A stretch of 64,000 nt of DNA. Origin: the human T2T-CHM13v2.0 reference genome, Homo sapiens. The translations under genes were made by a program, and so were the position numbers. Location: assembly GCF_009914755.1 (NCBI RefSeq), contig NC_060929.1; one strand, written 5' to 3'. A model generated the notes under the pieces. The model was not told where the DNA came from. It did no database searches and was given only the letters and a program-made list of their open reading frames with translations. Numbering within the stretch: the first letter of the stretch is position 1; each line of letters opens with the position of its first letter. Positions 4,480 through 13,650 of this stretch are shown in pieces.

Positions 4480-6280
4480 AAGACAATCCTAAGCCAAAAG
4501 GACGAGGCTGGAGGCATCACACTACCTGACTTCAAACTATATTACAAGTCTACATAACCAAAGCAGCATAATACTGTTACCAAAACAGACATATAGAACA
4601 ATGAAATAGAACAGAGACCTCAGAAAGAACACCAGACATCTACAACCATCTGATCTTTGAGAAACCTGAGAAAAACAAGCCATGGGGGAAAGGATTCTCT
4701 ATTTAAGAAATGGTGCTGGGAAAATTGGCAAGCCATATGCAGAAAACTGAAACTGGACCTGTTCCTTACACCTTATGCAAAAATTAACTCAAGATGGATT
4801 AGTGACTTACATGTAAAACCCAAAGCCATAAAGACTCTACAAGAAAACCTAGGCAGTACCATTCAGGGCACAGCCATGGGCAAAGACTTCATGATGAAAA
4901 CCCCAAAAGCAATTTCAACAAAAGCCAAAATTGACAAATGGGATATACTTAAACTAAAGAGCTTTTGCACAGCAAAAGAAACTAGCAGCAGAGTGAACAG
5001 GCAACCTACAGAATGGGAGAAAAATTTTGCAATCTACCCATCTGACAAAGGTCTAATATCCAGAATCTATAAGGAACTTAAACAAATTTACAAGAAAAAA
5101 ACAAACAACCTCATCAAAAAGTGGAAAAGGGGTATGAACAGACACTTCTCAAAAGAAGATATTTAGGTCAGGCACAGTGGCTCACGCATGTAATCCCAGC
5201 ACTTTGGGAAGCTGAGGTGGGCGGATCACAAGGTCAGGAATTTGAGACCAGCCTGACCAACATGGTGAAACCCCATCTCTACCAAAAATACAAAAATTAG
5301 CCAGGTGTGGTGGTGTGCACCTGTAATTCCAGCTACTTAGGAGGCTGAGACAGGAGAATCGCTTGAACCCAGGAGGCGGAGGTTACAGTGAGCTAAGATC
5401 GCGCCACTGCACTTCAGCCTGGGCGACAGAGCAAGAATTGGTCTCAAAAAGAAAAAAATATATATTTATGCAGCCAAGAAACATATGAAAACAAACAAAC
5501 AAACAAAGCTTAACATCATTGATCATTAGAGAAATGCAAATCAAAACCACAATGAGATACCATCTCATGCCATTCCGAATGGCGATTATTAAAAAGTCAA
5601 GAAACAATAGATGCTGGCAAGGCTGTGGAGAAATAGGTATGCTTTTACACTGTTAGTGGGAATGTAAATTAGTTCAACCATTGTGGAAGACAGTATGGCA
5701 ATTTCTTAAGGATCTAGAACAGAAATACCATTTGACCCAGCAATCCCATTACTAGGTATATACCCAAAGGAATATAAATCATTCTACTATAAAGACACAT
5801 GCACACATATGTTTACTGCAGCACCACTTACAACAGCAAAAACATGGAACAAACCCAAATGCCTGTCAATAATAGACTGGATAAAGAAAATGTGGTACAT
5901 ATACACTAAGGAACACTATGCAGCCATAAAAAAGAATGAGATAGTGTCCTTTTCAGGGACATGGATGAAGCCGGAAGACATCATCCTCAGCAAACTAACA
6001 CAGCAACAGAAAACCAAACACCACATGTTCTCACTTATAAGTTGGAGTTGAACAATGAGAACACATGGAGACAGAAAGGGGAACAACACACACCGGGGCT
6101 AATCAGGGGGTAAGGGGGAAAAGGGAGGGAGAGCATTAGGACAAATACCTAATGGATGTGGGGCTTAAAACCTAGATGACAGGTTGATAGGTGCAGCAAA
6201 CCACCATGGCACACATATACCTATGTACCAAACCACGTTCTGCATTTGTATCCCGGAACTTAAAGTCAAATGTTTTTTTA
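4480..6280 (+). mobile_element. 5'-truncated L1PA8-like element (ORF2 C-terminus plus 3' UTR)
   Basis: ORF2 fragments ([40 protein letters not shown]). The 3' UTR contains GGGGCTTAAAACCTAGATGAC and ends in GAACTTAAAG. Confidence 0.95.
5166..5458 (+). mobile_element. AluS (Sg-like) inserted in L1PA8
   Basis: Dimeric Alu with GATCACAAGGTCAGGAATTTGAGACCAGCCTGACC, an A-tail, and a degenerate TSD ending ATATTTA. Confidence 0.95.
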
Positions 6281-6295
6281 AAAAGAAAGTAAATG

Positions 6296-6440
6296 AACAA
6301 AAGCAATAAAAATAAACTTCTAAGTTAGAATTCTATACCTATTATAATATTCTTCAAAATGAGGGTTAAAGACATTCTAGAAAACAATAATTTCAGAAAT
6401 CCAGCACTGGCAGATCCAGATGCACAAAGGAAGTGATTAG
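6296..6440 (+). mobile_element. Ancient L1M ORF1 C-terminal fragment
   Basis: TAGAATTCTATACC...GAGGG..AAAGACATT encodes the RILY motif of L1 ORF1p. It continues the minus-strand piece at 12893 onward. Confidence 0.7.
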
Positions 6441-6455
6441 GACTTGATCTTTACT

Positions 6456-11672: not shown

Positions 11673-12756
11673 TTTTTATTATTATTATTATTATACTTTA
11701 AGTTCTGGGATACATGTGCAGAATGTGCAGGTTTGTTACATAGGTATACATGTGCCATGGTGGTTTGCCACACCCATCAACCCCTCATCTACATTAGGTA
11801 TTTCTCCTAATGCTATACCTCCCCTTGCCCCTCACTCCTGACAGGCCCCAGTGTGTGATGTCCCCTCCCTGTGCCCATATGTTCTCATTGTTTAACTCCC
11901 ACTTATGAGTGAGAACATGCGGTGTTCGGTTTTCTGTTCCTGTGTTAGTTTGCTGAGAATGATGGTTTCCAGCTTCATCCATGTCCCTACAAAGGACGTG
12001 AACTCATTTTTTATGACTGTGTAGTATTCCATGGTGTGTATGTGCCACATTTTCTTCATGCAGTGTATCATTGACTGGCATTTGTGTTGGTTCCAAGTCT
12101 TTGCTATTGTGAATAGTGCTGCAATAAACATACGTGTGCATGTGTCTGTATAGTAGAATAATTTATAATCCTTTGGGTATATAACCAGTAATGGGATTGT
12201 TGGGTCAAGTGGTATTTCTAGTTCTAGATCCCTGAGGAATCACCACACTGTCTTCCACAATGGTTGAACAAATTTACACTCCCATCAACAGTGTAAAAGC
12301 ATCCCTGTTTCTCCACATCCTCTCCAGCATCTGTTGTTTCCTGGCTTATTAACGATTGCCATTCTAACTGGTGTGGGATGGTGTCTCACTGTGGTTTTGA
12401 TTTACATTTTTCTAGTGGGATGGTGTCTCACTGTGGTTTCAATTTGCATTTTTCTAATGACCAGTGATGATCAGCTTTTTTTTCATGATTTTTTGGCCAC
12501 GTAAATGTCTTCTTTTGAGAAGTGTCTGTTCATATCCTATGCCCACTTTTTGATGGGGTTGTTTTTATCTTGTAAATTTGTTTAAGTTCCTTGTAGATTC
12601 TGGATATTAGACCTTTGTCAGATGGATAGATGGTAAAAATTTTCTCCCCTGCTGTGGGTTGCCTGTTCACTCTGATGATAGTTTCTTTTGCTGTGCAGAA
12701 GCTCTTTAGTTTAGATTCCATTTGTCAATTTTGGCTTTTGTTGCAATTGCTTTTGG
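11673..12756 (-). mobile_element. 5'-truncated L1PA7-like element nested in L1PA8
   Basis: A new (TTA)n tail and 3' UTR (GTTCTGGGATACATGTGCAGAATGTG), followed by the ORF2 C-terminus. Confidence 0.92.
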
Positions 12757-12892
12757 TCAGTTCTCTAGTTGGTTCTGATGGCAGAACCTGGATACCTCAG
12801 TTGCCAGTTCAGGATTCGCATGCTGTTATGGTTGTTTTTGATGAGTGCCTCCACTTACCACTGCTTCTTGTTGGTCATCTTGGCCCCGACCC
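12757..12892 (-). mobile_element. L1PA8-type 5' terminus
   Basis: The reverse complement reads GGGGCCAAGATGACCAACAAGAAGCAG...CATAACAGCATGCGAATCCTG...GAGGTATCCAGGTTCTG. Confidence 0.85.
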
Positions 12893-13650
12893 CATTTATT
12901 TTCTTTTAGCTTATTAAAAATGTCATTCCATCATCTTATTGTTTCTATTATTTTAGTTAAATAAAAATCTTTTGGTTTTATTTTAATGATTTAAAACTGA
13001 TGTCTATATTCTGTCTCCATTTAAGATTGTTTTTTTCTTGTTCTCAAACTTTGACTATAATATGCTTGGGTGTGTTTCCCTTGTATTTATCCTCTGTGGG
13101 ATTTGTTGAGTTTCTTGAAACTGTGGGTTGATGTTTTGGGGTTTTTATAATTAGCTGTAGAAAATTCTCAACCATTTGACTTCAAGTATCATTTGTATCT
13201 CATTTTCTTTCCCCTCTGCAACTCCAATTACATGTATGTTGTACATTTTCCATATATTTCTTATGCAACTTTCTATTTTTCAAACATATTTTCTATTTGT
13301 GTGCTTTAGTCTGGTTTTTCCATCCTACATTCTCATTCACCAATAATATCTGTTTAATATTTTTCAGTTTTGTAATATTTGATTTTTAAAAACTGAGTAC
13401 AGATTTCTGTTGAAACTCTCCATGTTGTCACCTATTTTCTTGCACACATGAGTCATAATTTTCTTCAAATCTGTGTCTGATATTTCAAATATCAGCATTA
13501 TTTGTAGACAGGTGTTTGTTGTTTTTTGTCTTTGTTACTTTTCTTGTCATTCCTGGTAATTTTTGATTAAATATTTGTGGGAAAAATTGTAGAGGTTCTG
13601 GATGATGTTATAGTCTTCAAGAGATTTGTTTACCCTCTCCTCTGGCTGTT
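12893..13650 (-). mobile_element. Ancient L1M ORF1 region
   Basis: Minus-strand translation includes WNDIFNKLKENK. T-rich decayed L1 texture. Probably extends as 5' region to about 14590. Confidence 0.7.

What the first reader, a model, noticed from the sequence alone, without database searches (positions are those of the whole stretch)
4480..12907. Apparent ~3.7 kb L1-associated inversion revealed by an inverted TSD and two split host repeats
Seen: (1) AAAAGAAAGTAAATG (6281-6295) follows the 3' end of the plus-strand L1PA8. It is the reverse complement (14/15) of CATTTATTTTCTTTT (12893-12907), which abuts the minus-strand L1PA8 5' end. One insertion's TSD copies therefore lie on opposite strands. 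(2) An ancient L1M ORF1 is cut at the same point: WNDIFNKLKENK lies on minus at 12893 onward, and NF*VRILY lies on plus at about 6315 onward. These are consecutive ORF1p motifs. (3) The old L1 5' UTR ends on minus at 4478 and resumes on plus, ending at 9940. Rejoined it reads CCATTTTT/AATCTAGATGCACACAAAGTCAGCC, which contains an L1 endonuclease TTTT/AA site and agrees with my recollection of the consensus. Inference: ~6281-9940 was flipped. One route is recombination between two inverted L1PA8 copies, with crossovers inside ~4880-6270 and ~9960-11040. The other is a single event in which two priming reactions on opposite strands were joined crosswise.
Basis: partly seen in the sequence, partly recalled or inferred. 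Interest (0 to 1): 0.8.

Follow-up and report, generated by a model that had tools for sequence, protein, structure and literature searches.

The report
Ancient L1-flanked 3.7 kb inversion
A 3.7 kb piece of human chromosome 5 was flipped tens of millions of years ago between two oppositely oriented L1 retrotransposons, which is a real but ordinary kind of rearrangement in a gene-free region.

Summary
The 15-mer at 6281-6295 and its reverse complement at 12893-12907 match 14/15; 0.09 such matches per window are expected by chance. Other genomic copies of the two old L1 elements read straight through both in-silico restored junctions. That is 6 of 7 copies at 4479|9940, and 21 of 32 at the split duplication against 1 of 32 in a wrong-orientation control. 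So 6281-9940 is inverted relative to its ancestral order.

The anatomy is more complex than reported. The "minus-strand L1PA8" has four pieces:
- e, a 3' kilobase (9941-11040)
- f, an ORF2 piece (11041-11675)
- g, a nested 3' end of another L1 lineage (11676-12757)
- h, a true full-length 5' end (12758-12892)

Lineage markers show no reciprocal mosaic between the plus copy and e over most of their overlap. Any homologous crossover therefore lies 5' of about 5052/10871, or in the 1.3 kb deleted at 11040|11041.

The mechanism is unresolved. Recombination between inverted L1s is about 0.4. Inversion coupled to L1 insertion is about 0.4 over its two variants. Both are in print. It is a new member of a known kind, of low interest.

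The parts
4180..4479 (-). Old L1 (element Y) 5' region, left side of breakpoint site S1; intact to the nucleotide at 4479
   Evidence: About 40 genomic paralogs. 6 of 7 fetched paralogs continue from here into rc(9940...).
4480..6280 (+). P: L1 3' portion (about position 4465 to the 3' end of reference copy L027), interrupted by an Alu. It ends in a T-run plus short A tail, as in some full-length relatives.
5166..5463 (+). Alu inserted in P, unrelated to the inversion
   Evidence: Alu homology 5171-5460
6281..6295 (+). Target-site duplication copy next to P's 3' end (AAAAGAAAGTAAATG)
6296..9940 (.). Host block now inverted. It begins with the C-terminal part of old L1 (element X) ORF1 on + (6296-6454). 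It ends with the 5'-most part of element Y on + (about 9400-9940).
9575..9890 (-). Young Alu inside the block, with its own direct duplication at 9558-9574 and 9891-9907
9941..11040 (-). e: L1 3' kilobase (about 4867 to the 3' end), A-rich tail at 9941-9975 abutting the TTTT/AA site S1
11041..11675 (-). f: L1 ORF2 piece (about 2952-3563), joined to e with about 1.3 kb of L1 missing (junction J4 at 11040|11041)
11676..12757 (-). g: separate 5'-truncated L1 3' end (about 4888 to the 3' end, own A/TAA tail) of a different L1 lineage, nested between h and f where about 2.8 kb of L1 is missing
   Evidence: 10 of 10 derived diagnostic states.
12758..12892 (-). h: first about 128-135 nt of a full-length L1 5' UTR; 12892 is the true 5' terminus
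12893..12907 (-). Target-site duplication copy next to the L1 5' end (AAAAGAAAATAAATG on the minus strand)
12908..13450 (-). Old L1 (element X) ORF1, the part upstream of the split

Best explanation
Two L1s of the same lineage inserted 3.7 kb apart in opposite orientation, into DNA made of two older L1 elements.

L1-a was a full-length copy on the minus strand. Its 5' end is at 12892. It was primed at CTTTT/AG and had a 15-bp target-site duplication.

L1-b was a 5'-truncated copy on the plus strand. It was primed at the TTTT/AA site S1 and has essentially no duplication.

Later the two inverted copies exchanged, in a retrotransposon recombination-mediated inversion, and everything between the exchange points flipped. 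As a result:
- L1-a's 3' part and its duplication copy now lie on the plus strand (P, up to 6295).
- The host block 6296-9940 is reversed.
- L1-b's 3' kilobase (e) is fused to what remains of L1-a's 5' part (h, f).

The exchange point lies 5' of about L1 position 5000. It was created together with, or later removed by, the 1.3 kb deletion at 11040|11041. A third L1 of another lineage (g) replaced about 2.8 kb of L1-a.

Shown: the inversion, the split duplication, the true 5' end, the composite anatomy, and the separate lineage of g. Inferred: the order of events, and that the exchange was homology-driven.
For: Both restored junctions are read through by independent paralogs: 6 of 7 at S1, and 21 of 32 against 1 of 32 in the control at the split duplication. 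The duplication pair matches 14/15, with 0.09 expected.

12892 is a genuine L1 5' terminus. Homology among 8 full-length relatives and the window starts within a few nt of it, and each has an unrelated upstream flank.

P and e overlap over about 1.05 kb in opposite orientation at 88% identity (121 differences in 1043 aligned positions). They are the same lineage, sister with support 0.91 in trees of 22 and 34 copies. Their private divergence is similar, 6.7% and 7.7%.

All 8 of 8 full-length copies with the most h-like 5' UTR have basal, P-like 3' ends. This links h with P, as the split duplication also does.

This kind of event and its duplication-mismatch logic are documented. There were 49 such loci between human and chimpanzee, 21 of them L1-L1, and 12 of 49 had deletions in the block or the repeats (PMC2603318, passages read). 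Eight polymorphic L1-mediated inversions with median length 5.5 kb are also reported (10.1101/2022.06.16.496479, passages).
Against: No reciprocal mosaic is seen. At the 8 lineage-informative sites where P and e differ, e is derived at 7 (P 5052, 5568, 5600, 5896, 6214, 6246, 6255) and P at 1 (5933). About 60% of the homology available for crossover is therefore excluded.

The three diagnostic sites in P's 5' 400 nt are all basal-like (3 of 3). This weakly favours P being one element.

L1-b would be an insertion with only a 0-2 nt duplication, which is unusual for a standard insertion.

The model needs an extra 1.3 kb deletion that happens to abut or cover the crossover.

No gene-conversion tract was found. 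P and e share 10 derived sites, no more than other pairs in the clade, which share up to 14.

No outgroup genome could be examined.
Confidence: 0.4

Rival explanations
1. Inversion coupled to a single new insertion. L1-a was already in place as a normal full-length insertion. L1 endonuclease then nicked S1 (TTTT/AA), and reverse transcription from the spacer-side end made e (1.1 kb). A second double-strand break fell inside L1-a. The four ends were joined crosswise without homology. The S1 flank joined L1-a at about 4465 (junction 4479|4480). The e cDNA end joined L1-a at about 3563 (junction 11040|11041). About 900 nt of L1-a were lost. The flipped block is 4480-9940, and P is wholly L1-a.
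For: This explains without extra events why P and e are each non-mosaic. It also explains why P's 5' 400 nt are basal-like (3 of 3), and why the L1 jump at 11040|11041 sits exactly at e's 5' end. It further explains why S1 has no duplication and no loss on the flank side.

Junction microhomology is 0-2 nt. e has a typical 5'-truncated length.

Exchange between an L1-induced break and another break is described in tumours and in L1-expressing cells (10.1101/2024.12.14.628481, passages). Six germline TE-insertion-mediated inversions, one of them L1, were found in 20 people (PMC8219666, passages).
Against: It is a rarer kind of event than repeat recombination. The marker evidence is thin, with a likelihood ratio of about 2. 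It needs a 900-nt loss and a second break that happens to lie in the neighbouring L1. There is no direct evidence that e's insertion and the inversion were simultaneous.
Confidence: 0.25
2. Two synchronous L1 insertions with crosswise joining. Endonuclease nicks on opposite strands at S1 and at the duplication site each primed a cDNA from the two ends of the 3.7 kb block. The block, carrying both cDNAs, was religated in reverse. P is one cDNA and h-f-e is the other, which is full-length and later damaged. The 15-bp staggered cut became a duplication split between the two junctions.
For: Both tails face the block, and each abuts a good endonuclease site: TTTT/AA at S1 and CTTTT/AG at the duplication. 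P and e are the same lineage and age, and are sister in the trees. Each is non-mosaic.

This architecture is described for tumours, including reciprocal inversions with L1 bridges flanked by 'heteroduplications' (10.1101/2024.08.27.596794, passages; 10.1101/2024.12.14.628481).
Against: h's closest full-length relatives (8 of 8) carry P-like states, not e-like states, at the informative 3' sites. This links h to P rather than to e.

P and e have different 3' termini: a T-run plus short A tail against a long degenerate A tail. They were therefore not copied from one RNA.

The model needs two simultaneous events, one of them making a full-length cDNA. S1 shows no staggered-cut duplication.
Confidence: 0.15
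3. Another multi-step or replicative route. One possibility is template switching between the inverted L1s during replication (MMBIR/FoSTeS type). Another is several successive rearrangements that happen to leave this layout.
For: There are three internal L1 junctions (11040|11041, 11675|11676, 12757|12758) and a stray 103-nt internal L1 fragment inside simple repeats at 7268-7370. These show that the locus suffered several breaks. P and e both start with the same five bases, AAGAC, at their 5' boundaries, which none of the simple models explains.
Against: No duplicated host sequence and no extra inverted copies were found in the self-comparison. Simpler models explain all seven junctions.
Confidence: 0.1
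4. There was no inversion. The 15-mer match and the split old repeats are chance, or an assembly error.
For: L1 target sites are all A-rich, which raises chance similarity. A third one-mismatch match exists at 25365-25379.
Against: Two independent sets of paralogs span both restored junctions and fail in the control orientation. P and e are only 88% identical, so the assembler could not have confused them.
Confidence: 0.02

Closest known systems
Retrotransposon recombination-mediated inversion (RRMI; Lee et al. 2008, PMC2603318)
   Same: Two L1s of one lineage in opposite orientation span the two breakpoints. The elements' duplications no longer pair up, and the pairing copies lie on opposite strands. 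The size of a few kb is typical for L1-L1 events. An accompanying deletion inside a repeat is common, at 12 of 49 loci.
   Different: This event is far older than the human-chimpanzee events catalogued there. The chimeric make-up of the two L1s could not be shown. Lineage markers in fact show no switch over most of the overlap. One of the two L1s has no duplication of its own.
L1-mediated polymorphic inversions among transposable-element-mediated rearrangements (10.1101/2022.06.16.496479)
   Same: Inverted L1 pairs at both junctions, and a size near the reported median of 5.5 kb.
   Different: Those 8 events had simple breakpoints and L1 pairs of median 97% similarity. Here one junction region carries a 1.3 kb deletion, and the copies are now 88% identical. 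Their identity at the time of the event is unknown.
Reciprocal inversions from synchronous L1 insertions or exchange of L1-induced break ends (10.1101/2024.08.27.596794; 10.1101/2024.12.14.628481)
   Same: There is an L1 at each inversion junction, poly(A) next to endonuclease motifs, and a target-site-type duplication split between the two junctions.
   Different: Those are somatic, megabase-scale events in tumours or L1-overexpressing cells. This one is germline-fixed, 3.7-5.5 kb and tens of millions of years old. That insertion and inversion were simultaneous is not shown here.
Twin priming (Ostertag and Kazazian 2001; cited in PMC12350158, reference list seen)
   Same: It involves L1 sequence in both orientations at one locus.
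   Different: Twin priming gives one poly(A), non-overlapping L1 segments, no host DNA between them, and direct duplications. Here there are two tailed 3' ends covering the same L1 coordinates, 3.66 kb of host DNA between them, and an inverted duplication pair.

Membership tests
Retrotransposon recombination-mediated inversion (RRMI) | Same-family retrotransposons in opposite orientation span both breakpoints | tested here: met
   P (+) and e (-) overlap over about 1.05 kb of the same L1 coordinates and are the same lineage.
Retrotransposon recombination-mediated inversion (RRMI) | Each breakpoint element has lost its matching direct duplication; the mates lie on opposite strands at different elements | tested here: met
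   The 15-mer pair at 6281-6295 (+) and 12893-12907 (-) matches 14/15. The second element has only a 0-2 nt duplication, so only one pair can be scored.
Retrotransposon recombination-mediated inversion (RRMI) | The two elements are reciprocal chimeras of the pre-recombination copies | tested here: inconclusive
   No pre-recombination copies are available. Internal lineage markers show no switch between P 5052 and 6255 (7 e-derived against 1 P-derived site). A crossover 5' of that interval, or inside the deleted 1.3 kb, cannot be excluded.
Retrotransposon recombination-mediated inversion (RRMI) | An un-inverted ancestral state with both elements present exists in an outgroup | not testable with these tools
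   No primate genomes other than the window's own assembly are held. Paralogs show only that the older repeats were once collinear.
L1 insertion-coupled reciprocal inversion (exchange of L1-induced break ends) | Poly(A) and an L1 endonuclease motif at the breakpoint(s) | tested here: met
   e's tail abuts CCATTTT/AAATC at S1. P's tail abuts the CTTTT/AG site.
L1 insertion-coupled reciprocal inversion (exchange of L1-induced break ends) | Target-site-type duplication shared between the two different junctions | tested here: met
   15 bp at the X site and 0-2 nt at S1. A later inversion of a normal insertion predicts the same pattern, so this feature does not discriminate.
L1 insertion-coupled reciprocal inversion (exchange of L1-induced break ends) | Insertion and inversion arose in one event | not testable with these tools
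   This needs orthologous loci from species that diverged around the time of insertion.
Twin-priming L1 insertion | One poly(A); an inverted 5' segment directly abutting a direct 3' segment; direct duplications; no host DNA inside | tested here: not met
   There are two (with g, three) tailed 3' ends with overlapping coordinates, and 3.66 kb of host DNA between them.
   No repeat library was available. Shown only: P, e and h group with one set of full-length copies. g groups with another lineage (support 0.90-0.91). Private divergence is 6.4-7.7%.

The most novel reading that the evidence does not exclude
The locus is a germline-fixed fossil, tens of millions of years old, of an inversion made during L1 integration itself. 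Either one new L1 (e) bridged an inversion junction between its own target site and a break in the neighbouring L1, or two L1s integrated at once. This is the process so far documented mainly in tumours and L1-overexpressing cells, and in a handful of polymorphic human variants.
Probability: 0.38. Interest if true: 0.5.

Novelty: new member of a known kind. Interest (0 to 1): 0.25.

Why it matters
The region has no annotated gene, so no functional consequence is expected.

The value is methodological. An inverted duplication pair plus split older repeats is enough to call an ancient small inversion from one genome. Paralogous copies of the host repeats give a control for the call that needs no outgroup.

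If outgroups showed the inversion to be coupled to L1 integration, the locus would be an evolutionary example of a mechanism known chiefly from cancer genomes. That is a modest addition, not a new principle.

Tried and rejected

(2) Pfam on the two short read-through frames found 0 families for either. They are too short and decayed.

(3) tblastn of three-frame translations of 8 younger L1 copies against the restored junction gave no hit at 1e-3.

(4) A DNA search with 6281-6454 found only 1 paralog. The short search with 12893-13100 found 4, and those alignments stopped at the duplication. The longer query solved this.

(5) I considered that h and g are one internally deleted L1, and that AAAAGAAA after g's tail is an 8-9 nt duplication of a further insertion. 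I rejected this for two reasons. Those bases are f's own L1 sequence in 4 of 8 references. g also belongs to another lineage than h's relatives.

(6) I looked for a gene-conversion tract between P and e. Identity peaks at 91-94% in some 150-nt windows. However, shared derived sites (10) do not exceed those of other pairs.

(7) I tested whether g is much older or younger than P and e. Private divergence is 6.4% against 6.7% and 7.7%, so there is no clear age difference.

(9) I looked for a polymorphic inversion call here. No number beginning 14526, 14527 or 14528 occurs in the one held supplement of PMC12350158. That file may not be the inversion table.

The 5' UTR type of g-lineage copies was therefore not examined.
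Full report
CHECK OF THE OBSERVATION

The 15-mer after the plus-strand L1 (6281-6295) and the 15-mer touching the minus-strand L1 5' end (12893-12907) are reverse complements with one mismatch. 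The window holds 3 matches at one mismatch or fewer, where 0.09 are expected, and no shuffle of 100 reaches 3.

A-rich L1 target sites resemble each other, so I did not rely on this alone. The window's own assembly could be searched, which let me use other genomic copies of the two old host repeats as witnesses.

For site S1 (4479 | 9940) I joined 4180-4479 to the reverse complement of the spacer end in a script, leaving out the young Alu at 9575-9890. Of 7 paralogous loci, 6 (L003-L008) align as one piece across the join. They show a 2-nt excess in the window and nothing missing. L002 stops there.

For the duplication site I joined rc(12908-13450) to 6281-6460. Of 32 paralogous loci, 21 give a single local alignment that runs at least 60 nt beyond the join. 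Only 1 of 32 does so when the spacer end is attached in the other orientation.

They are not strictly consecutive. The window has a private A-rich excess at the join, median 22 nt over the 21 spanning loci and 26 nt against L035. Both duplication copies contain part of this private stretch, which speaks for a true duplication of a pre-existing 15-mer.

Conclusion: 6281-9940 is inverted relative to the order in which the two old L1 elements were laid down.

ANATOMY

Eight full-length L1 copies, chosen because their 5' ends are the most similar to 12758-12892, served as coordinate references. No repeat library was at hand, so the subfamily names could not be tested.

- P (4480-6280, +) covers about position 4465 to the 3' end and is interrupted by an Alu at 5166-5463.
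- e (9941-11040, -) covers about 4867 to the 3' end. Its degenerate A-rich tail sits against S1.
- f (11041-11675, -) covers about 2952-3563.
- g (11676-12757, -) is a second complete 3' end (about 4888 to the end) with its own tail.
- h (12758-12892, -) is the first 128-135 nt of the 5' UTR.

The references and the window begin to resemble each other within a few bases of 12892, and each reference has a different upstream flank. So 12892 is a real full-length 5' terminus.

LINEAGES

In maximum-likelihood trees of the shared 3' kilobase (22 and then 34 copies), g falls with its own best genomic matches and with another L1 of the window (16,660-17,770). Support is 0.90-0.91. g carries the derived state at 10 of 10 diagnostic columns.

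P and e are sister (0.91). They lie in the basal grade together with all 8 full-length references.

Private divergence is alike: g 6.4%, P 6.7%, e 7.7%. From recalled substitution rates this means tens of millions of years.

g is thus an independent insertion that now stands where about 2.8 kb of the full-length element is missing. I had considered that h plus g form one element and that AAAAGAAA after g's tail is a further duplication. Those bases turn out to be f's own L1 sequence.

WHERE COULD AN EXCHANGE LIE?

P and e differ at 121 of 1043 aligned positions. At 34 of the differing columns, each of the two states is shared by at least three other copies. Eight of these 34 can be polarised along the L1 ladder.

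e has the derived state at seven: P 5052, 5568, 5600, 5896, 6214, 6246, 6255. P has it at one: 5933.

If the two copies were reciprocal chimeras with a crossover inside this stretch, the derived states should change sides. They do not.

A homologous crossover is therefore confined to three places: the first 170 nt or so of the overlap (P 4880-5052, e 10871-11040); the 400 nt that P has and e lacks; or the last 30 nt.

The L1 jump at 11040|11041 sits exactly at the edge of that zone. In P's private 400 nt the three diagnostic columns are all basal (3 of 3). e is derived at 3 of 10 comparable columns and P at 1 of 10, so this favours 'P is one element' only about two-fold.

P and e share 10 derived sites, no more than other pairs of the clade, which share up to 14. 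So there is no sign of a conversion tract.

MECHANISM

The full-length element was made by an ordinary integration. Its tail-side duplication copy and its 5'-side copy are both there, and the nick site reads CTTTT/AG. What followed can be told in three ways that fit all seven junctions.

(A) A second, 5'-truncated L1 of the same lineage integrated independently at S1. The inverted pair later recombined. The exchange point was lost in, or created with, the 1.3 kb deletion.

(G) The L1 at S1 is only e. While it was being made, its cDNA end and the other S1 end were joined crosswise to a second break inside the neighbouring full-length L1. About 900 nt were lost, and the flipped block is 4480-9940.

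(B) Both L1s were made at once from the two ends of the block, which was religated in reverse.

A is the commonest documented kind. It needs a duplication-less insertion, a crossover in a restricted zone and a deletion.

G needs no extra events and fits the markers slightly better, but it is a rarer kind of event.

B is disfavoured on two counts. h's nearest relatives (8 of 8) have P-like rather than e-like 3' ends. P and e also end differently, one in a T-run plus short A tail and the other in a long degenerate A tail.

My odds are A 0.40, G 0.25, B 0.15, other routes 0.10, and no inversion 0.02.

COMPARISON WITH WHAT IS KNOWN

The following are all in print:
- the recombination route and the use of mismatched duplications to infer it (PMC2603318, passages read);
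- polymorphic L1-mediated inversions of similar size (10.1101/2022.06.16.496479, passages);
- germline TE-insertion-mediated inversions (PMC8219666, passages);
- reciprocal inversions with L1 bridges and split duplications in tumours and in experimental L1 expression (10.1101/2024.08.27.596794 and 10.1101/2024.12.14.628481, passages).

Twin priming does not fit. There are several tailed 3' ends with overlapping coordinates, and host DNA lies between them.

I found no statement about this particular locus. That rests on a single look-up of coordinates in the one held supplement of PMC12350158 and on three literature searches by mechanism. The RRMI locus tables of PMC2603318 are old .xls files and were not opened. 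They list human-chimpanzee differences, and this older event is unlikely to be among them.

LIMITS

No outgroup genome and no repeat library were available. The lineage markers are few. The panel copies were chosen by similarity to h, e, g or P rather than at random.

VERDICT

This is a real, well-supported, ancient small inversion bounded by inverted L1s in a gene-free region. The anatomy is more complicated than reported, and the route is open between known mechanisms.

Noticed in passing
7268-7370 (within simple repeats 7185-7504): A 103-nt internal L1 ORF2 fragment on the plus strand. It has no tail and is embedded between (TA)n/(CA)n and C/T-rich repeats. It is 86-88% identical to the matching parts of P, e and g. 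It looks like filler DNA at an old break.
   Followed up: no
6455-6574: A 120-nt L1 3'-end fragment on the minus strand with a TAA-type tail, inside the inverted block. It is closest to the g-like lineage: 91% to 17646-17757 and 87.5% to g.
   Followed up: no
4480-4484 and 11036-11040 (minus strand): P and e both begin, at their 5' boundaries, with the same five bases AAGAC. These are native L1 sequence at two different L1 positions, about 4465 and about 4867. None of the models explains this, and it may be chance.
   Followed up: partly
L002 1498-2435 (chromosome 20 paralog of the old L1 5' region): This paralog breaks at the same TTT|AAAA site as S1. The next part of the repeat lies about 470 nt away in the opposite orientation, as if a block of about 770 nt had been flipped there too. 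No L1 tail is visible at the break.
   Followed up: partly
about 12370-12460: g contains a tandem duplication of about 45 nt of its own ORF2 sequence, seen by eye. It accounts for much of g's low gapped identity to other copies.
   Followed up: no
16660-17770: Another 5'-truncated L1 3' end on the plus strand, of the same lineage as g. It starts at nearly the same L1 position as e and g.
   Followed up: partly
6257-6280; L027 and L033 3' ends: P and 2 of the 8 full-length relatives end in a run of 6-8 T followed by only a few A before the duplication. e and the other 6 have ordinary A-rich tails. This seems to be a variant 3' terminus within the lineage.
   Followed up: no
3660-4170: Tandem repeats of about 110-340 nt period inside the old L1's 5' region, 72-74% identical to each other.
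   Followed up: no
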